A stretch of DNA of 29,084 bases from positions 1 to 29,084 of the forward strand of contig JBMORA010000010.1 in the NCBI GenBank assembly GCA_049320885.1, read 5' to 3'. The first letter of the stretch is position 1. Every line of letters begins with the position of its first letter. The stretch comes from Thermodesulfobacteriota bacterium. Lineage in GTDB: Bacteria > Desulfobacterota > Desulfobacteria > Desulfobacterales > SURF-7. Below, in pieces: positions 1 to 20,050 of the stretch. The notes beneath the pieces are model-generated. The model saw nothing but the letters and a program-made list of their open reading frames with translations. It was not told the DNA's origin and did not search any database. The position numbers and the translations under genes are program-made.

Positions 1-55
<55 letters not shown>

Positions 56-1441
56 ACGACAGCAACCAAAGAGCAGAAACAATATGATGTGATTGTCGCC
101 GGGTCCGGTCCCGGAGGGGCGACGGTGGCAAGGGAAATGTCCCGACGGGGGAAAAAGACCCTGATTCTGGAATGGGGGGGCAATGCTCCCATCACCGGAA
201 CCGCGGCGCAATTTTTCGCCCAGGCGGGCATTCCCGGAAAAAGTCTGATGATCACGAACAATGTCCTCGGCATGGTGCGCGGCATCACCACCGGCGGCAG
301 TTCGGTGTTTTATTACGGCACGGCTTTCGCTCCACCGGTGGGGATGCTGAAAACCCACGGCATCGAAATTGAAGAAGAAATCGAGGAGATTCATCAGGAG
401 CTGCCCACCAAACCCCTGGCGGATCATCTCATCGGTCCCATGGCCCGTCGCATCATGGAAAGCGCCGGGGAACTGGGGTACGACTGGAAACCCCTGCCCA
501 AATTCGTCTACCAGGAGCGTTGCCAGCCCAATTGCTGGCGCTGCAATTACGGATGCCCCTTCGGCGCCAAATGGAATGCCCGGATGTTTGTCAACCAGGC
601 CATCGATCAAGGCGCAACCTTGACGACCGGCGCCAAAGTCGAACGCGTGCTGCTGGAAAACAACAAGGCCGTGGGCGTGGAGTACCGGCAAAACGGGGCC
701 GTCCGGCGCGTTCATGCGCCGCTGGTGGTTCTTGCCGCAGGCGGAATCGGCTCCCCCATGATTTTACGGCAGACTGGAATCAAAGAAGCCGGTTATAACT
801 GGTTTTTCGACCCGCTGATCACGGTGATGGGCACCGTGGACGATATGTCCGGGGGAAGGGAGTTTCCCATGGCGGCCGGACTGCACATGGAGGAAGAAGG
901 CTATGTCATGACCGACATGACCGTGCCCCTCAGTCTGCATTTGCTGTTCAATACCGAAATTTTCCGCTTCGACAAGCTCGGGTCCCACCCTAGAACCCTT
1001 TCCATCATGATCAAGATAAAGGATGAACTGGGGGGCAGATTGACGGAGACAGGGGGCGTGCGCAAAAAACTTCTCCCGGCCGACAAGGAGAAGATCATGC
1101 GCGGCTATGGCCGGGCCAGGGACATCCTGAAAAACGCCGGAGCCGTTGATGTATGGAAAAGCTGGTACATCGCCGCGCATCCAGGGGGCACGGTGAAGGT
1201 CGGGGATTTGCTGGACAGCAATCTGAAAACCGGAATTGATAACCTGTATGTCTGTGACTGTTCGGTGATTCCGGAAGCCTGGGGACTGCCGCCCACCTTC
1301 ACCATTATTGCGTTGGGCAAGCGGCTGGCCAAACACCTGACAGCGGATCGCGCCTTGTCGGGTGCCGCCCAAACGGCAGCGAAAACAGTCACCGGCCCGG
1401 AACAATCGAATTCGCACCACCGGAAGGGAACCCTTTTATGA
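56..1441 (+). CDS. GMC-family FAD oxidoreductase with Cys cluster (5' end probably lost in poly-C)
   Basis: Rossmann motif YDVIVAGSGPGG, GITTGGSS, VVLAAGGIGSP, C-terminal HPGGT and NLYVCDCSVIP…PPT; Cys motif CQPNCWRCNYGCP. Frame stays open upstream of GTG 89 back to the poly-C. Confidence 0.85.
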   Translation, partial: TTATKEQKQYDVIVAGSGPGGATVAREMSRRGKKTLILEWGGNAPITGTAAQFFAQAGIPGKSLMITNNVLGMVRGITTGGSSVFYYGTAFAPPVGMLKTHGIEIEEEIEEIHQELPTKPLADHLIGPMARRIMESAGELGYDWKPLPKFVYQERCQPNCWRCNYGCPFGAKWNARMFVNQAIDQGATLTTGAKVERVLLENNKAVGVEYRQNGAVRRVHAPLVVLAAGGIGSPMILRQTGIKEAGYNWFFDPLITVMGTVDDMSGGREFPMAAGLHMEEEGYVMTDMTVPLSLHLLFNTEIFRFDKLGSHPRTLSIMIKIKDELGGRLTETGGVRKKLLPADKEKIMRGYGRARDILKNAGAVDVWKSWYIAAHPGGTVKVGDLLDSNLKTGIDNLYVCDCSVIPEAWGLPPTFTIIALGKRLAKHLTADRALSGAAQTAAKTVTGPEQSNSHHRKGTLL

Positions 1442-2895
1442 CAGCCATACCTGCTTCCCCACAAGGGCGCGCCGTTGCAAGCGATGCGCGAACAGCGGCG
1501 TTCCTTATCCGCGATTTGCTGGGCACCCGTGAGCTCCGGCAGGCCATCACGTTTCTGATCCCGGAACTGTTGAATCTCTGGGCCGGAAGGAACTCCCTGA
1601 AAAAAATGGTTGCCCGTCCGCTGGAAAAGGTCATCTGCGATGGCGTCCGTCCGCCGGATAATGAGCGCTGCCCATCGCTTCTGGATGAAGAGATGCTTGC
1701 CGGACGCTTGGAGGCGTTGCTGCCCCTGCTTTCCTCCGTGCTGTTCGACGTTGCCGACACCGTCGGTCGCGGCATGGAGAATTTGACGCCCGAAAAACAG
1801 GAAAAGGTGTTGAGCGCCTGCATTTCCAGCCTGACCACCGGCCGGAGCGGCGAAATGATCGCCAGGCTCGGCCGCATGATCGGGCGGATCCACCAGCGCA
1901 ATCCCCGATTTGTAACCGAAGCCCTGCAACCGGGTTTTCAACGCTGGATGGAAAGCATTGATTTCGGCGAACTCCGGGAAACGCTGGACCGTTCAGCTGC
2001 CGAGACGGCGGCTTTTGCAACCATGATCAATGATGTACTGTGGCGGTATCCCGCCAAGCTCGTCCTGGCGCTTTCCTGCCTGCCGGATCTGGCAAATGCC
2101 GGCGGCGTGATTCTGCGGGAGTCCCTGGGGCGTTTCAATCAGGTGTCGCCGGATCTGGTGGCGGATATCGTCCTGTCCCTGCTGCGCCATCTGGACGGCG
2201 CCGTCATGGGGAAATGCATCCAGGAAGCCGCGGACTTGATTCACAAGGTGCACACCGGCAGCGCGCTCATCGGTGATCCGGGGGTTCCGCAGTTTGTCCA
2301 GGATCTGAAAAAACTCGCCCAGGAGACGGCCGCCGGAATTGACGGGGTTTCCCTGGCCAAAGCCCGCAAGGCCTTGGCGGAAGATCGGGAAGTCATTGGC
2401 CGGGTTATGACGGATACCCTGAAAGCCCGGCCGGAATTATGGCATCAGCAGCTCCGGCAATGGGGGGAACTCAAGAACCCGGGCCTTCGGGCGGCGCGCC
2501 ATCGGCTTTCCTCCCTGGAAGAATTTTCCGGAGATTCAGCCGTCGAGGCCATGGCCGACGGCATCACCGAACTGGATATTCAGGAAGCCGCGGAATTGGT
2601 CAATCTGGTTTCCCGGATCGTCTCCCGTCTGCAGACGGCTCGGCCCCAGACCCTGACGATGCTGGCGACCCAATTCACCGAAGGTTTGGATTTGTTCGAA
2701 GTCACCTCCGCGGTTGAAAACGCGGCGGCCGTGCTGGGGGATTCCCTGGCCCCCGCCGGACGGGCGATCCTTCCTCCATTGCTCCGGACAGTCGGCCGCT
2801 GGATGCAGCCTGCCGATGACGAATTCGAGGACGAAATGCGGGCGGCCAGGGCGACCCTGCGCCGCCTGTTGACGGAAGAGGAGGTGACCCCATGA
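1438..2895 (+). CDS. Hypothetical helical Leu/Ala-rich protein (485 aa)
   Basis: Long ORF overlapping both neighbours by 4 nt (ATGA); no catalytic motif recognised. Confidence 0.8.
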   Translation: MTAIPASPQGRAVASDARTAAFLIRDLLGTRELRQAITFLIPELLNLWAGRNSLKKMVARPLEKVICDGVRPPDNERCPSLLDEEMLAGRLEALLPLLSSVLFDVADTVGRGMENLTPEKQEKVLSACISSLTTGRSGEMIARLGRMIGRIHQRNPRFVTEALQPGFQRWMESIDFGELRETLDRSAAETAAFATMINDVLWRYPAKLVLALSCLPDLANAGGVILRESLGRFNQVSPDLVADIVLSLLRHLDGAVMGKCIQEAADLIHKVHTGSALIGDPGVPQFVQDLKKLAQETAAGIDGVSLAKARKALAEDREVIGRVMTDTLKARPELWHQQLRQWGELKNPGLRAARHRLSSLEEFSGDSAVEAMADGITELDIQEAAELVNLVSRIVSRLQTARPQTLTMLATQFTEGLDLFEVTSAVENAAAVLGDSLAPAGRAILPPLLRTVGRWMQPADDEFEDEMRAARATLRRLLTEEEVTP

Positions 2896-4031
2896 TGGAG
2901 CTGTTCCATGACGCCGCCACCCGCATCAACAGCCAGGCCATCCGGGAATGGAAATCCCGGGGCAAAAAGATCGTCGGCACCACCTGTTCCTATGTTCCGG
3001 CGGAAATCTTCCATGCCGCCGGGATTCTTCCCGTGCGGCTGCGGGGAATTGAAACGGACAACATGGCCATCGGCGACGCCTATTTCGGACCGTATATCTG
3101 TTCCTTTCCCAAATGCCTGCTCCAGCTGGCCGGTGAAGGCCGCTTCGCCTTTCTGGACGGCACGGTCATCACCCCGGGATGCGACGCCATGCGAAGGCTG
3201 GACGATTGCTGGCGGAAAGCCGGCGAGGATCATCCGGGCATCGTGCCGTCCTTTTTTTATTATTTCGATGTCCCTCACAAGACCGCGCCCCACGGCATGA
3301 AATGGTTTGAGGAAGAAATCCGCAATCTCGTCGGGGCCGTGGAGAGACATTTTGATATCCGGATGGATGAAGATCGTCTGCGCGCTTCCATTGCGGTTTA
3401 CAACAAAGGACGGCGCCTGTTGAAAATCCTGGAGGATATCCGCCGTACCTCCCGGACGGGAATATCCGGGGCGGATGCGTTCGCCGTGGCCGTTGCCGGG
3501 ACCGTCCTGCCCCGCGAAAGCTATAATGCCGCCCTGGAGTGTCTTGTCCGGCAACTGGAGGAGCAGACACCGGACATCGTCAATGGTAAAACAAGACTGA
3601 TGGTTTTGGGCAGCATCAGTGACGACATGGACTTGATCCGACTGATCGAGGGTCATGCAAAAGCCGTGGTGGTGGCGGAAAACCTCTGTTTCGGCGTGCG
3701 CTATGAGGGGCACGAGATCGATGAAACCGGCGATCCGATAACCGCCCTGGCGGAAGGGTATCTCGGTGAATCCACCTGTCCGCGGATGTATGGAAAATAC
3801 GCGGAGCGCCTGGAAATCCTGAAGCAGACCATCCGGCGCGCCGGAGTACAGGGCGTGGTGATGCAGAATATCCGTTTTTGCGACCTGCACGGTTCGGAAA
3901 ACAGTCTTTTCGAACGGGATCTGGAAGCCATGGGCATACCCTGTCTGAAAATCGAGCGCGAATACGGCCCCTTGGTGGAAACCGGGCGAATCCGGATGCG
4001 TCTGGATGCGTTCATGGAAAGAATGATGTGA
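2892..4031 (+). CDS. BCR/HAD-family subunit (BzdN/BcrC/HgdB-like), copy 1
   Basis: GKKIVGTTCSYVPAEIFHAAGILPVRL, ICSFPK, GCDAMRR, NLCFG, TCPRM, GVVMQNIRFCDLH, GIPCLKIEREY…RLDAFME; SD GAGGTG. Confidence 0.9.
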   Translation: MMELFHDAATRINSQAIREWKSRGKKIVGTTCSYVPAEIFHAAGILPVRLRGIETDNMAIGDAYFGPYICSFPKCLLQLAGEGRFAFLDGTVITPGCDAMRRLDDCWRKAGEDHPGIVPSFFYYFDVPHKTAPHGMKWFEEEIRNLVGAVERHFDIRMDEDRLRASIAVYNKGRRLLKILEDIRRTSRTGISGADAFAVAVAGTVLPRESYNAALECLVRQLEEQTPDIVNGKTRLMVLGSISDDMDLIRLIEGHAKAVVVAENLCFGVRYEGHEIDETGDPITALAEGYLGESTCPRMYGKYAERLEILKQTIRRAGVQGVVMQNIRFCDLHGSENSLFERDLEAMGIPCLKIEREYGPLVETGRIRMRLDAFMERMM

Positions 4032-4035
4032 AAAC

Positions 4036-4193
4036 AATTACGAGTGGGGAATTACGAATTACGAATGGCGGATTCGGACAGGCAGGCATGATGAAACGAT
4101 TGCCGTTCCCATTTCAGCCGGTGTGTGAGCAGGACTACATTGATGATTGATAGCATACCATCATTCGTAATTCGTAATTCGTAATTTCTAATT
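4036..4193. repeat. Inverted arrays of the AATTACG/CGTAATT heptamer
   Basis: AATTACG at 4036, 4050, 4057; CGTAATT x3 at 4166-4186; 4050-4067 is the perfect reverse complement of 4162-4179. Confidence 0.9.
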
Positions 4194-4209
4194 AATTAAT
4201 GAGGTGTGC

Positions 4210-5610
4210 ATGCGACCGGAGATCAGGGAATTCAATTATGACTGGATGCTGTGGCGGATCCTGGATCCGGCCTCCCGGACAGCCGACGGAACGCCGAAGG
4301 AACTGGAGTATATGTATCGTTATGCCCCATATTTCAAAGGCATTCTGCAGCCGATACTACGGGAGGGCGCTCCCGGAGTCCTGTTCCTCAAGCTGTTGAA
4401 CCGATATCTGGAAAACGTCAACACCGCCCGCGCCCGGGGCAAGAAGATCGCCATCACGACCTTCTGTTTTTCCCCGGCCATCTGTTATGCCCTGGATATC
4501 GTGCCGGTTACCCTGGAAGTGATCACGGCCGTGGGCGGCCTGATGTGGAAGCGCGGCACCTTCGACTACCTGGATTACGCCTGTGAAATCGGGTTCACCG
4601 AAACTTCCTGCTCTTCCCAACGCGGCGCCCTGGGAGCATATCTGGCGGGCCTCGGCGAGGAAATCGACATGGTGTTGTGCGACACCCCCGGTATTTGCGA
4701 CACCAACGCCAATGCCTTCGCCTTCGCCGCCGCTTACCTGAAAAAACCGTTTTACCAGCTGAATTATCCCCAAAGTCTGGGGGACAAACGCACCGATACC
4801 TATCATGTGGACGATTACAAGGCCATGATACAGTTCATGGAAGAGCAATCCGGAAACCGGCTGGATTTGGACCGATTGCGGGAGATTTTGATGGAAGTCG
4901 ACAAACAGGACGCGCTCATCGCCGACCTGGAGGACATGCACCGCCTGGTGCCGACACCGTTGCCGTCTCTCTATAATCTGTTCAATTATGTCGGTCGGTT
5001 TTTATTCTCGGGGTCGCCCGAATACACCCGCCTGCTCGAGCAGATGGTCCAGAAGACCCGGGAAAACGCCGAGGCCGGGCGTTCCGGTTTGCATTCCGGC
5101 AGGGAAAAACTGCGGGCCTTTCTTTGTTATATCGACCATTATTCCCTGAACTGGAATTTCTGGAAGTGGCTGGACGACCACGGCATCGCGCATATGGGGG
5201 GAATCCTCTCCCGGGGATTCCGGGACAACTCCTGCTATGTCGACGGGTTGCCCGGTTCCGCCTACAGCGTGGATACAAGCAGCCTGGACACCATGATCGA
5301 CAGCATCGCCCAGATGAACGCGCGTCTGCCCATGGTCAGATCCATCCGGGGGCCCTTCGATCAGCCCAATATGTGGCTGGAGGAATCCCTGGCCGTGGCA
5401 AAGATTTTCCGGGCCGATTGCATGATCTACAACGGCACGCCGGGGTGCCGGAATACCTGGGGCATGGTGAAGCCTTTCGCCAGGGAAATCGAAAAACACG
5501 GCTATCCGGTGCATATCATGTACGCGGACGCCTTTGACGACCGGGTGGAGTCCTGGGCCGCTACGGCCGAACGGTTGAATGAATTTTTTCAGGTAAGGGG
5601 GTTGCTATGA
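4210..5610 (+). CDS. BCR/HAD-family catalytic-type subunit (BzdO/BcrB/HgdA-like), copy 1
   Basis: ARARGKKIA, ETSCSSQRG, GICDTNA, QFMEEQSGNRLDLDRLRE, PGCRNTWG, YADAFDDR; SD GAGG before ATG 4210. Confidence 0.85.
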   Translation: MRPEIREFNYDWMLWRILDPASRTADGTPKELEYMYRYAPYFKGILQPILREGAPGVLFLKLLNRYLENVNTARARGKKIAITTFCFSPAICYALDIVPVTLEVITAVGGLMWKRGTFDYLDYACEIGFTETSCSSQRGALGAYLAGLGEEIDMVLCDTPGICDTNANAFAFAAAYLKKPFYQLNYPQSLGDKRTDTYHVDDYKAMIQFMEEQSGNRLDLDRLREILMEVDKQDALIADLEDMHRLVPTPLPSLYNLFNYVGRFLFSGSPEYTRLLEQMVQKTRENAEAGRSGLHSGREKLRAFLCYIDHYSLNWNFWKWLDDHGIAHMGGILSRGFRDNSCYVDGLPGSAYSVDTSSLDTMIDSIAQMNARLPMVRSIRGPFDQPNMWLEESLAVAKIFRADCMIYNGTPGCRNTWGMVKPFAREIEKHGYPVHIMYADAFDDRVESWAATAERLNEFFQVRGLL

Positions 5611-6389
5611 CATTGGTGGCCGGATGTGATGTGGGGTCGTTGACTTCCAAAGCGGTCATTATGAACAAGGGTCGCATTCTCGGCGCCTTCATGACCAGGT
5701 CGCGGGTCAAACCCGAGATGTCGGCCGATGACGCCATGGCCGGCGCCCTGAAAATGGCGCAGGTTGCCATGAAAGACATCTCCCGTTGCGTCGGCACCGG
5801 TTATGGTCGGGAAAAAATTCCCTTCGTCAACGACGTTGTTTCGGAGATCGCCTGTCATGGGAAGGGCGCCCGATGGCTGGTTTCATCCGCCCGGACCATC
5901 ATTGATATCGGCGGACAGGATTGCAAGGCCATGCATATCGACGATGCGGGCCGGGTGGTCAAATTCATCACCAACGACAAATGCGCTTCCGGAACGGGTC
6001 GATTCCTGGATGTCATGGCGCGGGTTTTGGGCGTTTCCGTGGATGAATTGGGACGATTTTCCGCCCGGGCGAAAGAACCGGTGACCCTGGCTTCCACCTG
6101 TACGGTATGGGCCCAGGCGGATGTGATCAAGTATTTGAATTCCGGTGTGCCCATAGAGGATATCGGTGCGGGCATCAATACGGCCATGGCCAGCCGTATC
6201 GCCATACTGGCCAACTCCGTCCGGGCCGAAGGGGATGTCTGCATGACCGGCGGCGTGGCCAAGAATGCGGGGGTCGTCCAGACCCTTGAGAAACTCATCG
6301 GCCATCGTGTCAAGGTGCCCCGGAAGGCTGATCCGCAGCTGGCCGGGGCCATCGGGGCCGCCATCGTGGCGATGGAAAATTACGAATGA
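5607..6389 (+). CDS. ASKHA ATP-dependent activase (HgdC/BzdP-Q family), copy 1
   Basis: GCDVGSLTSK, GTGYGR, SEIACH, IDIGGQDCK, NDKCASGTG, STCTVWAQAD, TGGVAKN, GAIGAA. Confidence 0.92.
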   Translation: MTLVAGCDVGSLTSKAVIMNKGRILGAFMTRSRVKPEMSADDAMAGALKMAQVAMKDISRCVGTGYGREKIPFVNDVVSEIACHGKGARWLVSSARTIIDIGGQDCKAMHIDDAGRVVKFITNDKCASGTGRFLDVMARVLGVSVDELGRFSARAKEPVTLASTCTVWAQADVIKYLNSGVPIEDIGAGINTAMASRIAILANSVRAEGDVCMTGGVAKNAGVVQTLEKLIGHRVKVPRKADPQLAGAIGAAIVAMENYE

Positions 6390-6415
6390 CTATTCGTAAT
6401 TCGTAATTCGTAATT
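6378..6415. repeat. Second AATTACG/CGTAATT heptamer hairpin, overlapping a stop codon
   Basis: AATTACGAAT (6378-6387)-GACT-ATTCGTAATT (6392-6401), then two more CGTAATT. Confidence 0.88.
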
Positions 6416-6432
6416 AACCAAAGGGGGTGCGT

Positions 6433-7212
6433 ATGTTTGTGGCCGGTTGTGATGTCGGATCCTTGACCGCCAAGGCGGTGATCATGGAAGGCGAGCGGAT
6501 TGCCGCCCAGGCGGTCGTACGGGTCAAAACCGATCCGGCCCGGTCGGCCGAGGAGGTCCTCCACGCCGCCTTGACCCGGGCCGGGATATCCCTGGGAGAT
6601 CTCCAATACACCGTCGGCACGGGATACGGGAAAGCACGGATTCCCTTTGCCGGAAGGACGGAGTCGGAGATCACCTGTCATGCCAGGGGCGCCCGGTGGA
6701 AAAAACCGTCCGCCAGAACGGTCATCGATATCGGCGGTCAGGATGCCAAGGCCATCCGCCTGGATGCGGACGGGAAAGTGGTCCGCTATATCTACAACGA
6801 CAAATGTGCTTCCGGCACGGGGCGCTTCCTGGAGGTCATGGCGGAAGCATTGGAGGTGAAGCTGGAGGAGATGGGGAGAATCGGCCAAGGCGCCACCCGG
6901 AAGATCACCATTTCCAACCAGTGCGTGATATTCGCGGAAACCGAGGTGGTATCGCTGATCAACGAAGGCCGGGAAATGCCGGATATCGTCAACGGACTCC
7001 ATCATGCCATGGCGGGACGGGTGGCATCCCTGGCCCGCAGTATCGGTGTGGATCAGGATGTGATCATGACCGGCGGGGTCGCCAAGAACAGCGGGTTGTT
7101 CCAGGCGCTTTCCGAACACCTGGGGCTTCCCCTGCTGCATCTCGATGGGCTCGATCCCCAGATCAACGGCGCCCTGGGAGCGGCCCTGATCGCCGGGGAA
7201 TATGCAACATGA
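6433..7212 (+). CDS. ASKHA ATP-dependent activase, copy 2
   Basis: GCDVGSLTAK, GTGYGK, SEITCH, IDIGGQDAK, NDKCASGTG, NQCVIFAETE, TGGVAKN; SD AGGGGG before ATG 6433. Confidence 0.92.
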   Translation: MFVAGCDVGSLTAKAVIMEGERIAAQAVVRVKTDPARSAEEVLHAALTRAGISLGDLQYTVGTGYGKARIPFAGRTESEITCHARGARWKKPSARTVIDIGGQDAKAIRLDADGKVVRYIYNDKCASGTGRFLEVMAEALEVKLEEMGRIGQGATRKITISNQCVIFAETEVVSLINEGREMPDIVNGLHHAMAGRVASLARSIGVDQDVIMTGGVAKNSGLFQALSEHLGLPLLHLDGLDPQINGALGAALIAGEYAT

Positions 7213-7261
7213 AAAACGAATGGAGAATCCGTAACCGGGATTAAGCGTAAGGAAACAAGGT

Positions 7262-8578
7262 ATGGGACATCTGGTCGGAAAAGACGTCTATCGCAGACTG
7301 GGAGACAAAATCGACAACCTGACGCTCCGGGCGCCCTGGAACCCGGCTTTTCGGGAGTTGCTGGCAGCCCTGTACAGTCCCGAGGAAGCCGAACTGGTCG
7401 TGAACATGCCTTTCGGCCTGTCTTCCATCCAGCGGATATCCGGGATTACGAAAATTCCCATCGAAAAACTGCGGCGGCTGCTGGAAACGCTTTGCGGCCG
7501 GGGCCTGGTGATTGATCTGTGGATCCAGGAAGCCTATTGTTACGCCCCGTCGCCCCTGGCCATCGGCATATTCGAGTTCACCATGATGCGCACCGGCGAG
7601 GGGCTGGATCACAAGGGTTGGGCCCGGTTGTTTCATGACTATATTCACCAGGACGGCGGCCAGGTCTATGCCGCCAATTTCGACCGGGCGCAGCAACTGT
7701 CCCTCATGCGCACCCTGCCGCATGAAACGGCGCTTCCCAACACGCCCCACGTGGAAATCCTGGATTATGAGAAAGCCACGGAAATCATTGCCGCGGCGGA
7801 AAAATTTTCCATCGGTATCTGTTCCTGCCGTCATGAAAAATCCCACGTGCATGCCAAGCCCTGTGATGTGCCCATGGACAACTGCACGGCCTTGGGGTAC
7901 GCCGCCGACTATCTTATCCGCCGGAATCTGGCCCGGGAGGTTTCCCGCACGGAAATGCTGGAGAATCTGGCGCGTTCCCGGGAGCTGGGCCTGGTGCTCA
8001 ATGCCGACAACGTGCAAAAAAATGTCACCTATATCTGCAACTGCTGCGGCTGCTGTTGCAATATTCTCCAGGGCCTCAACACCTTTGGATATGAAAATGT
8101 GATCGTGACGTCCAGTTTCATCGCCGAGATCCGGGTCGACGAGTGCAGCGGTTGCGGTAAATGCGCCAAAGCCTGCCCGGTCAACGCCGTGGAGATGCGG
8201 CCGATTTCCCATGGGGAGAAGCGCGAACGGAAACAACCCGTTGTCGACGCCGGCATTTGTCTCGGCTGCGGGGTATGCGTACTCAAATGCGAAAAAAAAG
8301 CGCTGCGGCTGATCAAGCGCAAGCAGCGGGTGCTCCACCCGGAAACGACGTTTCGGCGTGTCATCCTCCAGTGTCTGGAACGCGGAACCCTTCAGAACCA
8401 GATTTTCGACAATCCCCAAAGCCGTTCCCAGGCTTTTTTGCGCGGAGTACTGGGTGGCTTTCTGGGTTTGCCGCCGGTGAAAAAGGCCCTGATGAGCGAC
8501 ACCCTGCGCTCGACTTTTCTGAAACTGATGGAAACCGGCGTGAAATTGCAGGGCAAGGGCTGGGCTGTCGAGATTTAA
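7262..8578 (+). CDS. Multi-Cys Fe-S protein with C-terminal 2x[4Fe-4S] ferredoxin domain
   Basis: CSGCGKCAKACP and CLGCGVCVLKC; additional ICSCRH…PCDVPMDNC and ICNCCGCCC. Confidence 0.88.
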   Translation: MGHLVGKDVYRRLGDKIDNLTLRAPWNPAFRELLAALYSPEEAELVVNMPFGLSSIQRISGITKIPIEKLRRLLETLCGRGLVIDLWIQEAYCYAPSPLAIGIFEFTMMRTGEGLDHKGWARLFHDYIHQDGGQVYAANFDRAQQLSLMRTLPHETALPNTPHVEILDYEKATEIIAAAEKFSIGICSCRHEKSHVHAKPCDVPMDNCTALGYAADYLIRRNLAREVSRTEMLENLARSRELGLVLNADNVQKNVTYICNCCGCCCNILQGLNTFGYENVIVTSSFIAEIRVDECSGCGKCAKACPVNAVEMRPISHGEKRERKQPVVDAGICLGCGVCVLKCEKKALRLIKRKQRVLHPETTFRRVILQCLERGTLQNQIFDNPQSRSQAFLRGVLGGFLGLPPVKKALMSDTLRSTFLKLMETGVKLQGKGWAVEI

Positions 8579-8581
8579 ACC

Positions 8582-9319
8582 ATGGAACTGTTTGAAACCC
8601 AATTTCAGGCCATTCGCGATTTTTTGGCTGCCGGCGGCCGGTCGGAAGCAATGAAAACCCTTGGGGCTCAGCCGGTTTCCTGGCCCGCCGGGCTGGGACG
8701 GAATCTGATTTTGTCCCGGGATACGGCCGTGGAGCTGGGTAATCCCCGGGAGGCTTCTACATCCTTCATCCTGTGGACCGGACACCGGGACAAGGTGATG
8801 GACGGCCGAATCCGGCTTCTGGGGCCGGATCTGCCGGCAAGCAGGGGACGCAGCCTGCCCTTCGGGAAAGTCGTCCTGATCCACGGCGACGGGTTCACCC
8901 CGGACAATACATATCCGCGTTATCGGGAGATGGAAGGGCTGCGATATCAGTTGGACCTCAGGGGATATATGTTGCGGGCGGTATCCCAATACCAGCGGGA
9001 ATGGAGCCGGGTGTCATGGGGGGCGCTGGAAACGGGATTTTCCTTTTCGGTGCTGGGCCGCGCCATCATCGATCAGTATCGCGCGATCGATTATGTCGGC
9101 GCGGTGGAAATCCTTTTCGTGACGGACGCACCGGAAACCGTGCGGGCGCTCCAGGCCATCGGGGATCAGGCCGGCCGGGTTGTCGGAGCCTTGAACCGGA
9201 TGAGCGTGGAGATGTCTTTTGACTGCGACAGCTGTGAATACGTCGATGTCTGCGGCGATGTGGCCGCCCTGCGAGCCATGAGAAGGAATCCAGCGGAGAG
9301 GACTGCCGTCCATGGATGA
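8582..9319 (+). CDS. Stand-alone acetyl-CoA synthase (AcsB/CdhC) middle-domain-like protein with C-terminal CxxC-x5-C
   Basis: DTAVELGNP…DGRIRLLGPDL…SLPFGKVV…WSRVSWGALETGFSFSVLGRAI…VEILFVTD parallels the AcsB middle domain as recalled (DGKIEVIGPDI…LPLGI…WLRVSKDAVAKGFRF…VQVTIFTD); ends FDCDSCEYVDVC. Confidence 0.7.
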   Translation: MELFETQFQAIRDFLAAGGRSEAMKTLGAQPVSWPAGLGRNLILSRDTAVELGNPREASTSFILWTGHRDKVMDGRIRLLGPDLPASRGRSLPFGKVVLIHGDGFTPDNTYPRYREMEGLRYQLDLRGYMLRAVSQYQREWSRVSWGALETGFSFSVLGRAIIDQYRAIDYVGAVEILFVTDAPETVRALQAIGDQAGRVVGALNRMSVEMSFDCDSCEYVDVCGDVAALRAMRRNPAERTAVHG

Positions 9320-10097
9320 GCCGAAAATTTCCAAGCCGGTGGTCATCGCCGTTTGCGGCAAGGGGGGGGTGGGGAAAACCTCCATCAGCGCCGTGATGAC
9401 CAGGATCCTTTCCGGCCATGAGAACAACAAGGTGCTGGCGGTTGACGCCGATCCGGCCGCGGGTCTGGCGGGCGCGCTGGGTTTCACGGCGGCAAGGACC
9501 GTGGACCAGATCCGCAGCGAACTCATCGAGCGCATCCGGCAAAACGCCGGGGGCGACCGGGGGGAAATCATCGCCCGGATGGATTACGAGGTGCTGGAAG
9601 CCCTGGAGGAAGATCGCAATATCGCCTTCCTGGCCATCGGCAGACCGGAGCTGGAAGGATGTTATTGCCAGGTCAACCGGTTCTTAAAGGAGATCATCGC
9701 CGCGGTTGCGGCGGGTTTTGACTTTGTGGTCATTGACGGGGAGGCCGGTGTCGAACAGATCAACCGGCGGGTCATGGAGACCGTCACCCATCTGGTGCTG
9801 GTGTCGGACGCTTCGGTCAGGGGCCTGCGCGTGGCGGAGACCATTCTGGGGATGGCGGCAAAAGCCGTTGCCCATGAAAAAAGCGGTCTGATCCTGAACC
9901 GGCTCCGGGGGCCATCGGAAAGAGAGCGGCTGCGGATTCCGGCCGCCGCGGGCATTCTGGGATGGATTCCGGAAGATGACACGGTGCGGAATTTTGATAT
10001 CGCGGGCAGAAATTTCCTGGAATTGCCTGATTGTTCCATGATGCGGGGGGTTTCGGAATTCCTGGAAAAACTGGGCGTGATCCCGGTACAGGCGTAA
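9312..10097 (+). CDS. cooC: CooC/AcsF-type nickel-insertion ATPase (MinD/SIMIBI family)
   Basis: Deviant Walker A GKGGVGKT, VLAVDADP, metal-binding GRPELEGCYC, Walker B/switch VIDGEAGVEQINR. Confidence 0.85.
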   Translation: MDEPKISKPVVIAVCGKGGVGKTSISAVMTRILSGHENNKVLAVDADPAAGLAGALGFTAARTVDQIRSELIERIRQNAGGDRGEIIARMDYEVLEALEEDRNIAFLAIGRPELEGCYCQVNRFLKEIIAAVAAGFDFVVIDGEAGVEQINRRVMETVTHLVLVSDASVRGLRVAETILGMAAKAVAHEKSGLILNRLRGPSERERLRIPAAAGILGWIPEDDTVRNFDIAGRNFLELPDCSMMRGVSEFLEKLGVIPVQA

Positions 10098-10124
10098 CAA
10101 GGCTCTGGGAGAGAGGGAATTATC

Positions 10125-11255
10125 ATGGATTTCGGTGCGTGGCAGGCGTTTCTGGGGGACATGCTCCGGGAACCGGAAAACGGTTTCCTGGTGAGCGCCT
10201 CGGCAGAGGGCAGAATCCCGGTGGGTTATACGTGCAGCTATGTGCCCCAGGTGATTCTTTCCGTGGACGGATTGGTGCCGGTGCGGCTGCGCGCGCCGGG
10301 TGCGGCGGGCACCGAGATCGCCGATATCTACCTCTCCAACGTCGTCTGCTCCTATACTAGAAGCCTGCTGGAGTTCGCCATGGACGGCCGCTACGATTTT
10401 CTGGGCGGCTGGGTGTTCGCATCCGGATGCGATCATATCCGCCGGCTGCTGGACAACCTCGTGTATCTGCGGACGCCCCGTTTTACTCACATGGTCGACG
10501 TTCCGCATCGCCGGGGGGCTATGGCCCTTGCCTGGTACGAGGAGGAACTCTGCGTCTTGTGTGCGCGGTTATCCGCGGCCTTCGGTGTGGACACCGGCCG
10601 AGCGGCCCTGAGCCGGGCGATTTCCCGATACAATGATTTCAACCGCAAGGTGCAGATCATCGGCGATTGCCGCAAGGAAAAAAATCCGCCCGTCAGCGGC
10701 ACCGAATTCCAGCGCATCATGATCGCCTCCCTTTCCGGCGGCCGCGATCAAATGATGGCGGCATTGGACCGCATGGCCGGTGAGATCCCGGGACGACCGG
10801 GAAACAACCGATACCGGGCCCGGCTCATGGTGGTGGGTGGAAACGTGGATGACACGGCTTTTATCGAGTTGCTGGAGTCCAGCGGTGGAATTGTGGTGGC
10901 CGATCGTTTCTGCACCGGCTCCATTCCCGAAACGGAACTGATTGACGAGGGTGGCGATCCCCTGAAGGCCATTGCGAAGTACACCCTGGACCGGCAAGCC
11001 TGTCCGCGCATGATGGAGGATTTTACGGAACGAATGGCGGCCATTTTGCGGACCCGTGATGAATACCAAGCGGACGGCGTGGTCATCGAGAATCTCAAGT
11101 TCTGCGATATCTGGGGGATCGAGTCCGCTCTGCTGGTCCAGGCGTTGCGGGATGCCGGAGTTCCGGTTCTCCGGGTGGAGCGGGATTATCGGCAGGGGAG
11201 TGAAGGACAGTTGCGCACCCGGGTCCAGGCCTTTATCGAGAGCATGGGGAAATGA
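10125..11255 (+). CDS. BCR/HAD-family subunit (BzdN/BcrC/HgdB-like), copy 2
   Basis: VGYTCSYVP, VCSYTR, GCDHIRR, DRFCTG, ACPRM, DGVVIENLKFCD, GQLRTRVQAFIE. Confidence 0.9.
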   Translation: MDFGAWQAFLGDMLREPENGFLVSASAEGRIPVGYTCSYVPQVILSVDGLVPVRLRAPGAAGTEIADIYLSNVVCSYTRSLLEFAMDGRYDFLGGWVFASGCDHIRRLLDNLVYLRTPRFTHMVDVPHRRGAMALAWYEEELCVLCARLSAAFGVDTGRAALSRAISRYNDFNRKVQIIGDCRKEKNPPVSGTEFQRIMIASLSGGRDQMMAALDRMAGEIPGRPGNNRYRARLMVVGGNVDDTAFIELLESSGGIVVADRFCTGSIPETELIDEGGDPLKAIAKYTLDRQACPRMMEDFTERMAAILRTRDEYQADGVVIENLKFCDIWGIESALLVQALRDAGVPVLRVERDYRQGSEGQLRTRVQAFIESMGK

Positions 11256-12763
11256 TGAACGGAAAACGGATTCCGGCAGGGTCGGGCAACCCGTCGGCAG
11301 GCGCGTGGATGGGGGATCTGCTGGTGTATATTCGGTATTCGACGGTCAATTGGCTCAAGATCATCGCCCTGGTGATCAAGCACGGTCCTTTGGACACGGT
11401 CCGGGACCTCCGCCGTTATCCCTGGATTCTGGTGCTGCTGCAGGTCAATCGCCTGCTGTGGCGTTTTATCCGGGGAAGGCGCGGCCGTTACCGGAAAGCC
11501 ACCGCCATGGTGATGGCCGATATCGTCGCCGGGGTGATCCGCATGATGGACGATGTGTTTTTCCGGGGGGAGCGCCTGGTCATCCATGAGGACATGGTGC
11601 CGCCGGAAATCATTCGGGCCATGGGGCTGGTGCCCTTCATGGCCGAACTGATGGGCATCCTGATGCCCATGATCCGGCCCCACTCGGTGGAGGCGTATAT
11701 CGATGCGTGTGAAAACGCCGGCATTCCTCCGGACATCTGCAGCCTGCCCAAAAGCACCATGGGCTTGACCCTGATGGGGCATCTGCCGCCGGCCCTGGCC
11801 GTCATCACTTCCAATCTCCCCTGCGACGGCGGCATGGCTTCCTATGCCTTGATGGAAAGGGAACTGGGGTTGCCCACCATCCGCCTGGATATACCGTATC
11901 GGTTCACCGATGAAAAAGCGGTGGATTATTTCGTCGGGGAGCTGAAGCGGCTGATCGGCTGGCTGGAAGCCCGCACGCCCGGCCGGATGGATTGGGAGCG
12001 ACTCAAGAATATCTGTGAAGAACGCAACCGCATGCTGGCCTTCGAACAGGAGTTGTGGGAACTGATCCGGATTCGTCCGGCGCCCATGGCCGGCGAACCG
12101 ATCTGGCTGAGTCACATGTGGAATTTCAATGTGACGCCCGGCAGCGCCGACAGCACCCGCACGTTCGAGCGGATTGTCGCCATGGGGAGACAAAATCTGG
12201 AAGAGGGGGTGGACCCCGTCGGTGAGAGATACCGCGCCCTGCTCTGGAATCCGCCCACCATTCATTTCATCGATATCTATAATTGGGCGGAAAAGGCCTA
12301 CGGCGTTTCACTGATCATGGACAGCATGACCTTCAACCGCATCGAGCCCATCGACACCGGAACGCCGGAATCGATGCTGCGCGGCCTTGCCAAAACCATC
12401 ATGAACGGACCCATGGCCCGTCACACCAGGGGACCGGCTGAAAACTACGTCAACGACATTTTCCACATCACCAGACAATTTGACATCGATATGATCTGGG
12501 TAGCCGGTCATATCGGCTGTAAAAACACCCAGGCGTTGAACGGCATGCTGCGGGAACTGTGCCGCCGGGAGGGCATTCCGCTGCTGATCATTCATTACGA
12601 CCTTTCGGATCCGCGCATCGTATCCCGGGAGGGCATCATCGAGCAGATCGATCATTTCATGGAAAACATCATGAAAGCCCGGCGCCTGCCTTTGGGCGGC
12701 GATCGAGGAATGGCCAAGGGCCGCAAGGACCTGACGGTCCTGGGACAAAAGGAGGCGGTATGA
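11252..12763 (+). CDS. BCR/HAD-family catalytic-type subunit (BzdO/BcrB/HgdA-like), copy 2
   Basis: VPPEIIRAMG, DICSLPK, LPCDGG, RLDIPY, HIGCKNT, YDLSDPR; start could instead be the downstream MGDLL ATG. Confidence 0.85.
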   Translation: MMNGKRIPAGSGNPSAGAWMGDLLVYIRYSTVNWLKIIALVIKHGPLDTVRDLRRYPWILVLLQVNRLLWRFIRGRRGRYRKATAMVMADIVAGVIRMMDDVFFRGERLVIHEDMVPPEIIRAMGLVPFMAELMGILMPMIRPHSVEAYIDACENAGIPPDICSLPKSTMGLTLMGHLPPALAVITSNLPCDGGMASYALMERELGLPTIRLDIPYRFTDEKAVDYFVGELKRLIGWLEARTPGRMDWERLKNICEERNRMLAFEQELWELIRIRPAPMAGEPIWLSHMWNFNVTPGSADSTRTFERIVAMGRQNLEEGVDPVGERYRALLWNPPTIHFIDIYNWAEKAYGVSLIMDSMTFNRIEPIDTGTPESMLRGLAKTIMNGPMARHTRGPAENYVNDIFHITRQFDIDMIWVAGHIGCKNTQALNGMLRELCRREGIPLLIIHYDLSDPRIVSREGIIEQIDHFMENIMKARRLPLGGDRGMAKGRKDLTVLGQKEAV

Positions 12764-13572
12764 CCAAACGGGGATTGAAACCATACTACGGAGGCTGCGA
12801 TATCGGCTCCACCACCGGAAAAGCCGTGATCCTGAACGGCGAGGGCGTTGTCGCGTCCGCCATCGTTCCCAGCGAAATCGATCCGGCCCGCACCGCCGAC
12901 ATCGTCCTGCGGGCCGCATGCCGCCAGATAGAAGATCTCGGGGACATCCGGAATCTGTCGTATCTGATCGGTACGGGTTACGGGCGCAACGAAGTGCCGT
13001 TTGCCCACGAGAATCTATCTGAAATCAGTTGCCATGCCATGGGGGTCCATTATTGCGACCCGAACATCCGGACGATCATCGATATCGGCGGGCAGGATGT
13101 CAAGGGGATCGCGCTGGATGAGACCGGCGGGGTAACGGAATTCGCCATGAACGATAAATGCGCGGCCGGAACCGGACGGTTCCTGGAAATGATGAGCCGG
13201 ATATTCCGGATGGATCTGGAGGAGTTTTCCCGGCTGTCCCTTACGGCCAGCCGCACGATTCCGGTGACGTCCCAATGCAGTGTGTTCGCCGAAACCGAAG
13301 TCATCAGCCTGCTCAGTCAACGAAAACCCGCGGCGGAAATCGCCGCCGGCATCCAGGCGTCGGTGGCCAAGCGTGGTTTCAGCCTGCTGAAAAAGATCGG
13401 TATCCGTCCCCGGGTGACCATCACCGGCGGATGCGCCAAAAACAAGGGGCTGGTAACCGCCCTGGCCGGATACCTGCGCGAGGATGTCCGGCCGCTTTCC
13501 GTGGATCCCCAATTGATGGGCGCGCTGGGCGCCGCCGTCATCGGTCGCCTCCGGGCTGGTGGCATGGCATGA
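12760..13572 (+). CDS. ASKHA ATP-dependent activase, copy 3
   Basis: GCDIGSTTGK, GTGYGR, SEISCH, IDIGGQDVK, NDKCAAGTG, SQCSVFAETE; SD AGGAGG and ATGA overlap put the start at 12760, not 12559. Confidence 0.92.
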   Translation: MTKRGLKPYYGGCDIGSTTGKAVILNGEGVVASAIVPSEIDPARTADIVLRAACRQIEDLGDIRNLSYLIGTGYGRNEVPFAHENLSEISCHAMGVHYCDPNIRTIIDIGGQDVKGIALDETGGVTEFAMNDKCAAGTGRFLEMMSRIFRMDLEEFSRLSLTASRTIPVTSQCSVFAETEVISLLSQRKPAAEIAAGIQASVAKRGFSLLKKIGIRPRVTITGGCAKNKGLVTALAGYLREDVRPLSVDPQLMGALGAAVIGRLRAGGMA

Positions 13573-13634
13573 CGGCCTGTGCCGTTTTCACCGGCCGTGA
13601 CGGTCCGCTGCAACCAACAACCTCCATGAAATAT

Positions 13635-13672
13635 AAAAGGCATGCCCCCGTCCGGGAAGGCATGCCCTTTTT
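13635..13672. terminator. Probable bidirectional intrinsic terminator
   Basis: AAAAGGCATGCC…GGCATGCCCTTTTT stem flanked by A/T tracts between convergent genes. Confidence 0.7.
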
Positions 13673-13687
13673 GCTTTTGATGGACGA

Positions 13688-13888
13688 TCAGACAACGGTT
13701 ACATTGACAGCGGTCGGACCTTTTTTCCCTTCTTCCACATCAAAGGTGACCCGATCTCCTTCGTTCAGGGATTTGAACCCCGAACCATTAATACCCGTGT
13801 GATGCACAAATACGTCCGGGCCGCCTTCCTGCTCAATAAATCCGTAACCTTTTTTGTCGCTGAACCATTTTACGATACCATTCGCCAT
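13688..13888 (-). CDS. Cold-shock protein (CspA family)
   Basis: [15 protein letters not shown] (RNP1), DVFVHH (RNP2), 66 aa, SD AGGAGG. Confidence 0.96.
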
Positions 13889-14044
13889 CGTGGCATCCTC
13901 CTTTCTTGATCTTTTCTGGTATGGAACTTGAGGCGCCCACTTTGAGAAATGGATTTTTCGTCAACAAGTAACCAAACCACTTGATAATGACCATAAAACG
14001 ATGTTCCGCATCATATCGTTTCTGGACAGGAAATCAATATTTTT

Positions 14045-15396: not shown

Positions 15397-15603
15397 CTAT
15401 TGTTTCATGATCCGCACGTTAATCGCCTGGAACCCATGACGGGTTTCTTTCAATTCAAACGTCACGCGATCCGATTTTTGCAGGGTGAAAAATCCATGGT
15501 CCTTGATGCCGGTGCTGTGCATGAAGACATCGCCGTCATCCGGGGTTTCAATGAAGCCGTAACCTTTTTTCTCATCATACCACTTGACCGTTCCTTCTTT
15601 CAT
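15397..15603 (-). CDS. Cold-shock protein paralogue
   Basis: MKEGTVKWYDEKKGYGFI…DVFMHSTGI; SD AGGAGG before ATG 15603. Confidence 0.93.
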   Translation of the reverse strand: MKEGTVKWYDEKKGYGFIETPDDGDVFMHSTGIKDHGFFTLQKSDRVTFELKETRHGFQAINVRIMKQ

Positions 15604-20032: not shown

Positions 20033-20050
20033 ACGAAATGTGGAAATCAT

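What the first reader, a model, noticed from the sequence alone, without database searches (positions are those of the whole stretch)
56..13572. Uncharacterised 12-gene anaerobic operon joining two ATP-driven BCR/HAD modules, a mini-ACS/CooC pair and an Fe-S GMC dehydrogenase
Seen: 12 co-oriented genes, six junctions overlapping, ending in one terminator. Order: GMC, unknown, N-O-activase-activase, Fe-S protein, ACS fragment, CooC, N-O-activase. Known: BCR/HAD enzymes use ASKHA activases for very low-potential radical reduction or dehydration of CoA esters; CooC/AcsF mature Ni enzymes. I know of no characterised pathway combining these parts, and no CoA ligase, dienoyl-CoA hydratase, ring hydrolase or cooS gene is in the window. 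Inference: a dedicated catabolic or electron-transfer system for an unknown substrate, possibly nickel-dependent.
Basis: partly seen in the sequence, partly recalled or inferred. Interest (0 to 1): 0.85.

Follow-up and report, generated by a model that had tools for sequence, protein, structure and literature searches.

The report
ATP-driven reductases with mini-ACS partner
This conserved 12-gene cluster encodes two ATP-powered iron-sulfur enzymes of the benzoyl-CoA-reductase family plus a cut-down acetyl-CoA synthase and a CooC-type metal-insertion ATPase, and it likely reduces a fatty, non-aromatic substrate, possibly with nickel, by chemistry that no paper we searched describes.

Summary
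In detail: 12 co-oriented genes, six overlapping junctions, one terminator. The GMC start is damaged by a contig break, and a GntR regulator lies on the adjoining contig. The same order recurs in 5 of 80 related loci. In 151 Desulfobacterales genomes, all 22 with this alpha-subunit clade also carry the mini-ACS. It is not a benzoyl-CoA reductase: the subunits fall far below family cut-offs, lack BzdO His131, and only 1 of 22 carriers has the ring hydrolase (55 of 129 non-carriers do). Both beta subunits keep the six double-cubane cysteines. The mini-ACS keeps the CoA-binding domain and three cubane cysteines but has lost the nickel CGC ligands. It is weakly predicted to bind alpha-1. Alpha subunits carry extra Cys/Met/His/acidic residues beside the vacated cubane pocket. 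Neighbouring genes and host gene content point to long aliphatic chains. Best reading (0.45): an undescribed ATP-driven reductase for a lipid-type substrate, with the mini-ACS as a partner and nickel inferred, not shown. The scan noted this system earlier on other DNA. Ten literature searches found no description.

The parts
1..55 (.). Poly-C run at the contig end; assembly artefact. The upstream GntR regulator gene lies at the start of contig C24 (minus strand) and runs off in a G-run.
56..1441 (+). GMC-family FAD oxidoreductase (alcohol dehydrogenase type); start codon damaged; C145-x3-C149-x2-C152-x3-C156 motif, optional in the family; His364 in 28 of 28 (numbering from 89)
   Evidence: Pfam PF00732/PF05199; nearest solved relative FAD glucose dehydrogenase, E 4e-7; conservation
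1438..2895 (+). Orphan all-helical protein with internal repeats, tied to module 1; shorter homologues (about 170-250 aa) precede it in Smithella-type loci
   Evidence: no Pfam or NCBIfam hit; model pLDDT 80, all helical; in 49 of 55 covered loci; hhalign 94% to the short form
2892..4031 (+). HGD-D beta subunit 1 with the six double-cubane [8Fe-9S] cysteines (C31/69/96/265/295/329, numbering from 2895)
   Evidence: aligned to BzdN C36/73/100/263/293/327 (ligands from PMC11971306); each kept in 52-53 of 53
4032..4209 (.). Intergenic inverted repeat built from TCGTAAT heptamers; a dispersed genomic repeat, probably not part of the mechanism
   Evidence: folds at -51.1 kcal/mol; 40 copies of the 14-mer in the genome
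4210..5610 (+). HGD-D alpha subunit 1 (predicted catalytic): cluster Cys134/163/413 and Glu103, plus extra Cys86, Cys306, Asp309, His310, Met375; Asn166 replaces BzdO His131
5607..6389 (+). ASKHA activase 1 with a variant CTVWAQA motif; likely forms a heterodimer with activase 2
   Evidence: TIGR00241 above cut-off; W168/Q170/A171 in 54 of 54
6433..7212 (+). ASKHA activase 2
7262..8578 (+). Fe-S protein: unannotated N-terminal ~270 aa Cys-rich domain (CxC at 187-189 and 259-261) plus a 2x[4Fe-4S] ferredoxin domain; optional; likely electron donor
   Evidence: architecture resembles the isr-operon ferredoxin in PMC10134865 by cysteine spacing only
8582..9319 (+). Mini-ACS: stand-alone acetyl-CoA synthase middle (A2) domain plus Cys215-x2-Cys218-x5-Cys224; keeps the adenine-stacking Trp (W141); lacks the fourth cubane Cys, the CGC nickel motif and the Arg/His acyl-transfer pair
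9312..10097 (+). CooC/AcsF-type P-loop ATPase with intact GKGGVGK and CxC; a dedicated paralogue (three other CooC-like genes in the genome)
   Evidence: best solved match CooC 3kje, E 1e-16; C117/C119 in 72 of 72
10125..11255 (+). HGD-D beta subunit 2 with six double-cubane cysteines (C37/75/102/263/293/327)
   Evidence: 31 of 31 each
11252..12763 (+). HGD-D alpha subunit 2: cluster Cys163/191/423, Glu132, Glu113-Asp114 loop, Met388, His391, His420; Trp/Arg-rich N-terminal extension shared with gut homologues
12760..13572 (+). ASKHA activase 3 with the canonical CSVFAE motif; likely a homodimer for module 2
13628..13680 (.). Bidirectional intrinsic-terminator-like hairpin between the operon and a convergent cold-shock gene

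Best explanation
The operon encodes two benzoyl-CoA-reductase-family iron-sulfur enzymes of one undescribed clade that likely use ATP-boosted electrons to reduce a long-chain aliphatic (lipid-type) substrate, with the mini-ACS predicted to dock on the alpha subunit and CooC likely loading nickel into that complex. Steps: (1) Shown: three intact ASKHA activases, two beta subunits with the six double-cubane cysteines, and two alpha subunits with three cluster cysteines and the catalytic-position Glu. (2) Inferred from BzdNOPQ: reduced ferredoxin (perhaps gene 7) reduces the activase cluster, ATP hydrolysis pushes the electron into the beta [8Fe-9S] store, then to the alpha [4Fe-4S]. Module 1 uses a heterodimeric activase; module 2 uses a homodimeric one. 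(3) Inferred: the mini-ACS binds the CoA end of the substrate and a three-Cys metal cluster, and CooC inserts nickel either there or in the alpha pocket vacated by the second cubane, which is lined by Cys86/Met375/Asp309/His310 (alpha-1) or Glu113/Asp114/Met388/His391 (alpha-2). (4) Inferred: the target is a bond that is hard to reduce and is not part of a benzene ring, most likely an isolated C=C or a C-O bond in a fatty or isoprenoid chain. The GMC (or an ACAD pair), aldehyde oxidoreductase and ligase then feed the product into beta-oxidation. The helical orphan protein and amphipathic extensions would present the hydrophobic substrate.
For: Double-cubane beta subunits and a two-activase layout match the stoichiometric reductase BzdNOPQ; HADs have lost the double cubane. 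In 151 Desulfobacterales genomes, alpha-1 was found in 22 and alpha-2 in 12, and every one also has the mini-ACS, often at another locus; the mini-ACS was found in 25 (thresholds mine; kin are not independent). CooC directly follows the mini-ACS in 72 of 80 loci. A distant gut clade keeps CooC-beta-alpha-activase-mini-ACS in 16 of 27 covered loci. Complex prediction alpha-1 plus mini-ACS gave weak support: score 0.54, best control 0.00, runs agree in at least 95% of contacts, partner pLDDT at least 79. The mark was reached by 116 of 157 solved and 2 of 215 mismatched pairs, but at 0.60 or under by only 18 solved pairs and both mismatches. Cys86 and Met375 each lie one residue from a distal-cubane ligand position; that Met is present in all 27 clade rows shown and in none of the six HadB-like proxies. 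Ring hydrolase Oah: 1 of 22 carriers against 55 of 129 others. PF12806 acyl-CoA dehydrogenase matches: median 4.5 against 2. Recurring neighbours are acyl-CoA dehydrogenases, AOR, acyl-ACP thioesterase, a fatty-acyl-CoA-ligase-like protein and crotonase. Family precedent for reducing lipids: PlsA/Ger (PMC13159169).
Against: No substrate, activity or metal was measured. The mini-ACS lacks the CGC nickel ligands and the Arg383/His386 equivalents, so nickel has no complete known site. No CooT- or CooJ-like family appeared among recurring neighbours, and the gut CooCs are not His-rich. Cys86 is specific to alpha-1 and is lost in its deepest branches. Most gut alpha subunits have Gln instead of the catalytic Glu, so modules may do different chemistry. 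The pocket assignment rests on sequence alignment only; no coordinates were available. AOR and thioesterase are next to only 9 and 5 of 57 loci. Eight of 27 gut loci, all from one closely related set, have a lone mini-ACS.
Confidence: 0.45

Rival explanations
1. HAD-type radical (de)hydratases. One ATP-activated electron is recycled to remove water from a long-chain 2-hydroxyacyl-CoA, or to add it to an enoyl-CoA in an alpha-oxidation-like route. The mini-ACS and CooC serve as a CoA-binding or cluster-maturation accessory.
For: Alpha-1's best solved relative is HadB (E 4e-19). It keeps the Glu55-position residue and lacks BzdO His131, as HadB does. Acyl-CoA dehydrogenase pairs and crotonases are neighbours.
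Against: Both beta subunits keep the double cubane that HADs have lost. HadB/HadC scores are 42 and 129 bits against cut-offs of 750 and 700. The clade is separate from HadB-like proxies. HADs need no ACS fragment or CooC.
Confidence: 0.2
2. ACS-type organonickel chemistry. The beta/alpha/activase modules act as an ATP-driven electron pump that reduces a nickel on the mini-ACS cluster, with its other ligands supplied by alpha. The nickel then cleaves or forms acyl-CoA C-C/C-S bonds, for example one-carbon shortening of branched fatty acids with release of CO.
For: The mini-ACS keeps the CoA-binding domain, Trp141/Arg143 and the CxxC aligned to the A-cluster cysteines. It has a dedicated CooC and weak predicted binding to alpha-1 (0.54 against best control 0.00). 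GMC plus AOR would re-oxidise a shortened product. CooS was found in 7 of 10 carrier genomes tested.
Against: The acyl-transfer Arg383/His386 equivalents, the fourth cubane Cys, the CGC motif and the CO-channel domain are all lost. CooS was not found in 3 of 10 carriers (completeness not given). The alpha subunits keep their own substrate-pocket residues.
Confidence: 0.15
3. Membrane-lipid modifying reductases akin to PlsA/Ger (ester to ether or vinyl ether, or saturation of membrane acyl chains), with the catabolic neighbours secondary.
For: The same BcrAD plus HGD-D parts reduce lipid esters in PlsA/Ger. Alpha-2 has a Trp/Arg-rich N-terminal extension, and a 55-aa hydrophobic peptide occurs in 25 of 80 gut loci.
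Against: The genome has separate fused double-activase genes on C31 and C45, the layout that describes for Ger (not further tested). GntR, TetR and AraC regulators, tandem alpha paralogues and catabolic neighbours indicate substrate-induced catabolism.
Confidence: 0.1
4. A class I aryl-CoA reductase for benzoyl-CoA or another ring (steroid, heteroaromatic).
For: BzdN is the best solved match of beta-1 (E 7.5e-38) and BzdO of alpha-2 (E 2e-17). The N-O-P-Q-like layout is the same.
Against: All scores are far below Bcr/Bzd cut-offs. His131 is absent. Oah is over the cut-off in 1 of 22 carriers against 55 of 129 others. A KstD-like match occurs in 1 of 22, none over the cut-off.
Confidence: 0.07

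Closest known systems
Class I Bzd-type benzoyl-CoA reductase BzdNOPQ (PDB 8S02; PMC11971306)
   Same: Double-cubane beta subunit, three-Cys alpha subunit with the Glu65-position residue, two activase genes (module 1).
   Different: Scores far below cut-offs; His131 replaced by Asn or Gly; extra Cys/Met/His/Asp at the pocket; N-terminal extensions; carriers mostly lack the ring hydrolase; constant mini-ACS and CooC, plus the orphan helical protein in module 1.
2-hydroxyacyl-CoA dehydratases HadBC/HadI, HgdAB/HgdC, FldBC (PDB 3O3M)
   Same: Fold; catalytic Glu position; single homodimeric activase (module 2).
   Different: Beta subunit keeps six cysteines; Ser37 loop carries Cys or Asp; separate clade from HadB-like proxies; extra partners.
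Double-cubane cluster protein DCCP (PDB 6ENO; PMC7317905)
   Same: Six-Cys [8Fe-9S] motif in the beta subunits; ATP-driven electron input.
   Different: Heterodimers with a three-Cys alpha subunit; 165-168 bits against a cut-off of 350; the genome has its own separate DCCP-like gene on C1.
Acetyl-CoA synthase AcsB/CdhC with its maturase AcsF/CooC
   Same: A2 domain fold (Foldseek E 1e-10, TM about 0.6), adenine-stacking Trp, CxxC plus a third Cys of the A-cluster, adjacent CooC with CxC.
   Different: 245 aa; no N-terminal domain, fourth cubane Cys, CGC motif or Arg/His acyl-transfer pair; encoded with reductase subunits rather than CODH or CoFeSP.
Plasmalogen synthase PlsA and glycerol ester reductase Ger (PMC13159169)
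   Same: BcrAD plus HGD-D parts acting reductively on long-chain lipids.
   Different: Those are fused proteins with DUF2229 and are biosynthetic; no mini-ACS or CooC is described.
Putative isoprene reductase operon isr (PMC10134865)
   Same: Proposed reduction of an unfunctionalised C=C by an Fe-S enzyme with nickel chaperones; its ferredoxin has a similar ~270 aa Cys-rich domain.
   Different: Flavin/NADH enzyme with HypA/HypB; no ATP-driven activase. The resemblance to gene 7 was judged from cysteine spacing, not from an alignment.

Membership tests
BCR/HAD radical enzyme superfamily (PF06050 + PF01869) | HGD-D alpha/beta subunits with cluster cysteines and ASKHA activases with two Cys and ATP motifs | tested here: met
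Class I benzoyl-CoA reductase (Bcr/Bzd) | Subunit scores above the equivalog cut-offs | tested here: not met
   beta-1: BcrC 146/421, BzdN 139/454; alpha-1: BcrB 28/487; alpha-2: BzdO 19/449; activases BzdQ 164-189/380
Class I benzoyl-CoA reductase (Bzd) | Double-cubane six-Cys motif in the N subunit | tested here: met
Class I benzoyl-CoA reductase (Bzd) | Glu65 and His131 at the aqua-[4Fe-4S] site | tested here: not met
   Glu kept (E103, E132); His131 position is Asn in 73 of 73 alpha-1 and Gly or Asn in 29 of 29 alpha-2
Class I benzoyl-CoA reductase | Host has the downstream ring-opening hydrolase Oah/BamA | tested here: not met
   own genome best 111 bits against 464; 1 of 22 carriers
2-hydroxyacyl-CoA dehydratase (HadBC type) | Scores above HadB/HadC cut-offs and a three-Cys beta subunit | tested here: not met
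   42/750 and 129/700; beta has six Cys
2-hydroxyacyl-CoA dehydratase | Nesting among HadB/HgdA/FldB-like alpha subunits | tested here: not met
   FastTree, SH-like 99, no bootstrap; proxies are six uncharacterised HadB-like proteins, not the characterised enzymes
DCCP (NF040772) | Homodimer with the 7-Cys motif, above cut-off | tested here: not met
   165-168/350; paired with a three-Cys alpha subunit
Acetyl-CoA synthase | Complete A-cluster ligand set (four cubane Cys plus CGC) | tested here: not met
   three Cys only; protein ends before the fourth Cys and the CGC motif; A-cluster ligand roles recalled
Acetyl-CoA synthase | A2 CoA-binding surface (Trp405; Arg383, His386) | tested here: inconclusive
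   Trp kept in 105 of 127 and the next Arg in 123 of 127; Arg383/His386 positions hydrophobic or variable; numbering mapped by motif spacing
CooC/AcsF nickel-insertion ATPase | Deviant Walker A and metal-binding CxC | tested here: met
CooC/AcsF nickel-insertion ATPase | Inserts nickel into a client | not testable with these tools
   needs metal analysis
Fe-S-containing GMC dehydrogenase (FAD-GDH type) | Cys-rich cluster motif | tested here: inconclusive
   present here and aligned to the GDH Cys region, but kept in only 16-17 of 28 homologues per position; GDH cluster role recalled
Any solved fold for the orphan gene 2 | Structural match | tested here: inconclusive

The most novel reading that the evidence does not exclude
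A new class of nickel enzyme. A BCR-fold alpha subunit and an ACS-derived subunit together build a Ni-[4Fe-4S] site where the second cubane was lost. CooC loads the nickel and ATP-driven electrons from a double cubane activate it. The site reduces or hydrates unactivated C=C (or cleaves C-O) bonds in fatty, alkenyl or isoprenoid chains. It would be a candidate for unassigned steps such as anaerobic alkene activation, or complete saturation of fatty acids in digesters, rumen and gut.
Probability: 0.2. Interest if true: 0.92.

Novelty: new variant of a known kind. Interest (0 to 1): 0.72.

Why it matters
The BCR/HAD family has few known reactions, all built on iron-sulfur clusters alone. This clade has recruited a piece of acetyl-CoA synthase and its metal chaperone as near-obligate partners. 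The mini-ACS family spans at least 223 clusters at 50% identity and occurs in sulfate reducers, syntrophs, spirochaetes and gut Firmicutes. A five-gene minimal set makes it directly testable. If nickel is present, it adds a new nickel enzyme class and a new low-potential reaction on lipids. At the least, these genes are annotated as benzoyl-CoA reductase in some sources and would wrongly suggest aromatic degradation in metagenome studies.

Tried and rejected
Literature: ten full-text searches listed no paper describing the cluster; subscription papers and supplements were not searched. The Smithella M82 genome paper has none of the six terms searched. The D. gibsoniae and OPB41 passages concern other genes. 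The AcsF paper was not held. RNA: no RNA holder listed, so expression is untested. Rfam: no match. Orphan gene 2: no Pfam, NCBIfam, Atlas (first hit 0.87, unnamed), Foldseek or VIA match (best Z 5.8 over 45 residues); this does not show a new fold. Steroid catabolism, suggested by the paired ACADs and BaiCD-like gut neighbours: KstD-like match in 1 of 22 carriers, none over cut-off, and the neighbours are far below BaiCD/BilR cut-offs; not supported. True BzdO references for the tree: none found in 301 genomes or five handles, so no characterised enzyme is in the trees (the careful tree did not finish). Plasmids: no mini-ACS; distant alpha-like genes without mini-ACS or CooC among the listed genes. 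I first read the mini-ACS CxxCx5C as a Cas4-like motif and dropped that after aligning it to ACS. Six glycyl-radical enzymes in the genome were listed but not classified. Only one complex could be predicted; alpha-2, CooC and the orphan protein were not tested as partners.

Full report
OBSERVATION. The window is the whole of contig C10 of a 5.6 Mb genome, 98% complete. The closest named loci are Desulfobacterales records. Six junctions overlap. A hairpin at 13635-13670 faces a convergent cold-shock gene. Bases 1-55 are poly-C and the GMC start codon is damaged. The GntR gene that precedes the GMC in the two same-genus relatives has an 85% match running off the end of contig C24 in a G-run, so the assembly probably broke between regulator and GMC.

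CONSERVATION. Of 14 relative loci, two have the same 12 genes and six have the same order without the Fe-S gene. A scan with the mini-ACS alignment confirmed 166 matches and returned the best 80, from Desulfobacterales, Smithella, Spirochaetota, one Bacillota and others. CooC follows the mini-ACS directly in 72 of 80, and a reductase subunit or activase is present in 74 of 80. The full 12-gene order occurs in 5 of 80; three of these have a distant (26%) Fe-S gene. Among 55 loci with at least 8 kb upstream, the orphan-beta-alpha-activase-mini-ACS core is intact in 46, GMC is present in 31, an acyl-CoA dehydrogenase in 17, either in 47, and the Fe-S gene in 23. Among 57 loci with at least 4.5 kb downstream, module 2 is present in 28, AOR in 9 and a thioesterase in 5. 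In 151 order-level genomes the mini-ACS was found in 25, alpha-1 in 22 and alpha-2 in 12; every alpha carrier has the mini-ACS, often at another locus (E thresholds mine; kin are not independent). The own genome has a second orphan-beta-alpha-activase-activase-FeS cluster on C31 without mini-ACS or CooC. The mini-ACS family holds 223 representatives at E 1e-30 or better. A distant clade in gut and rumen-type metagenomes (best 80 of 440) has CooC-beta-alpha-activase-mini-ACS in 16 of 27 covered loci, a lone mini-ACS in 8 closely related ones, and no GMC or orphan gene. The invariant unit is therefore five genes.

REDUCTASE SUBUNITS. All four HGD-D proteins score far below the cut-offs for Bcr, Bzd, Had and DCCP. 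Both beta subunits keep the six cysteines that bind the [8Fe-9S] cluster in BzdN. HADs have lost this cluster, and in BzdN it stores electrons (PMC11971306, parts 1-4 of 8 read). Both alpha subunits keep three cluster cysteines and the Glu at the BzdO Glu65 / HadB Glu55 position, but not His131 (the HadB residue roles are recalled). Alpha-1 adds Cys86 (71 of 73), Cys306 (64 of 73), Asp309 (71), His310 (73) and Met375 (73). Alpha-2 has Glu113/Asp114 (26 of 29 each), Met388, His391 and His420 (29 of 29). Cys86 and Met375 each fall one residue from a distal-cubane cysteine of beta-1, so they likely line the vacated pocket; this rests on alignment only. In a FastTree (SH-like support, no bootstrap, midpoint root), 27 rows from mini-ACS-bearing genomes or loci separate at 99 from six HadB-like proxies, the genome's other HAD and DCCP proteins and two plasmid proteins (similar in the quick IQ-TREE). 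The Met is present in all 27 rows and in none of the six HadB-like proxies. Against a single shared chemistry: most gut alpha subunits have Gln for the Glu, and the deepest alpha-1 branches lack Cys86. Activase 1 has a fixed WAQA variant (54 of 54), consistent with a heterodimer with activase 2; activase 3 is canonical.

MINI-ACS AND CooC. Gene 8 matches ACS residues of about 333-483, and its model matches only ACS structures. Its CxxC aligns with the first two A-cluster cysteines of the genome's own ACS, and the protein ends before the fourth cysteine and the CGC motif (ligand roles recalled). The lead that the three cysteines are ACS-derived came from an earlier scan note and was checked here. 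The three cysteines are kept in 124-125 of 127 sequences. By motif spacing, the adenine-stacking Trp405 described in 10.1101/2024.08.05.606187 (passages) is kept (105 of 127), whereas Arg383 and His386 are not. It therefore looks like a CoA- and metal-binding module and not a working ACS. CooC keeps its P-loop and CxC (72 of 72), and the genome has three other CooC-like genes. CooS was found in 7 of 10 carrier genomes tested (completeness not given) and the ACS C-terminal domain in 3 of 5. A complex prediction of alpha-1 with the mini-ACS gave weak support: 0.54 against a best control of 0.00, contacts agreeing in at least 95%, partner pLDDT at least 79. The mark was reached by 116 of 157 solved and 2 of 215 mismatched pairs, but at 0.60 or under by only 18 solved pairs and both mismatches.

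SUBSTRATE CLASS. The ring hydrolase Oah is absent over cut-off here and present in 1 of 22 carriers against 55 of 129 non-carriers. A KstD-like match occurs in 1 of 22. Carriers have more PF12806 acyl-CoA dehydrogenase matches (median 4.5 against 2; confounded by size and kinship), and the own genome has 35 ACAD-domain matches. Neighbours include ACAD pairs, AOR, acyl-ACP thioesterase, fatty-acyl-CoA-ligase-like proteins, crotonase and GntR/TetR/AraC regulators. In one genome, alpha-2 copies sit beside carotenoid- or squalene-desaturase-like genes. Tandem alpha paralogues suggest substrate variants. The family already reduces lipid esters in PlsA/Ger (PMC13159169, passages). Gene 7's Cys-rich domain resembles, by spacing only, that of the nickel-chaperone-linked isoprene reductase operon (PMC10134865, passages).

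MECHANISM. Shown: the parts, the ligand sets, the co-occurrence and the non-membership in known subfamilies. Inferred: ATP-driven electron flow from activase to double cubane to alpha cluster; docking of the mini-ACS; nickel insertion by CooC; reduction of an unactivated bond in a long aliphatic chain, with GMC or ACAD, AOR and ligase linking to beta-oxidation (0.45). Rivals: HAD-type dehydration or hydration (0.2), ACS-type acyl/CO chemistry (0.15), membrane-lipid modification (0.1), aryl-CoA reduction (0.07). I put nickel involvement of any kind at about even odds.

NOVELTY. Ten searches listed no description. Also seen as passages: PMC7317905, PMC13365417, PMC12289521, PMC9686372 and PMC4148979; PMC5606693 as a listing and a term search only. 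No supplements were read; the family alignments in the supplement of PMC11971306 and proteomic tables of cultured carriers could include these genes. The scan noted the system earlier in other genomes; those notes are not independent evidence. Added here: the genome-level co-occurrence, the anti-correlation with the aromatic pathway, the alpha-pocket signature, the predicted docking and the missing regulator. Verdict: a new variant of a known kind, interest 0.72; the boldest reading, a new nickel enzyme class, has probability 0.2.

Noticed in passing
window 4032-4209, 6379-6415: Dispersed repeat of TCGTAAT heptamers, forming a long inverted repeat between beta-1 and alpha-1; 40 copies of the 14-mer in the genome; REP- or MITE-like.
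   Followed up: partly
window 13690-13900 (-) and 15397-15678 (-): Two cold-shock (CSD) genes flank a SurA/PpiC-type peptidyl-prolyl isomerase gene.
   Followed up: partly
window 18056-22327: Topoisomerase IV-like parE/parC pair.
   Followed up: no
window 23306-28943: Three Rhs-core ORFs with different C-terminal tips; the first two are followed by a small hydrophobic ORF in low-GC DNA; looks like an orphan Rhs toxin-immunity array.
   Followed up: partly
L025:1516-9473 (G000 C31): Paralogous GntR-orphan-beta-alpha-activase-activase-FeS cluster (50-62% in the reductase parts) without mini-ACS, CooC or GMC; may use the window's pair in trans.
   Followed up: partly
G000 C1:111099-114340: Another HAD-family beta/alpha pair convergent on a CooC-like gene, outside the mini-ACS clade.
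   Followed up: partly
L136:7834-8001 and similar in 25 gut loci: A 55-aa hydrophobic peptide gene between the activase and the mini-ACS; possible membrane anchor.
   Followed up: partly
L136:649-2919, L158:1028-3355: Long OYE-family flavo-Fe-S enzymes (BaiCD/BilR-like, below cut-offs) next to CooC in five gut loci.
   Followed up: partly
L044:989-4600: Smithella-type loci carry an ACAD pair, one member degenerate (alpha2beta2-like; comparison recalled), and two short homologues of the orphan protein in place of the GMC.
   Followed up: partly
L196:6336-9719, L197:8598-16384: Stand-alone alpha-2 copies next to HpnE/carotene-desaturase-like and CrtO/phytoene-dehydrogenase-like genes; a hint of isoprenoid substrates in one genome.
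   Followed up: partly
G000 C28, C17, C53, C46, C9, C25: Six glycyl-radical enzyme genes, unclassified.
   Followed up: no
L212:8890-14318: Rhizobium leguminosarum plasmid carries a HAD-family alpha/beta pair and two activases with rhodanese and sulfate-permease genes, unexpected in an aerobe.
   Followed up: no
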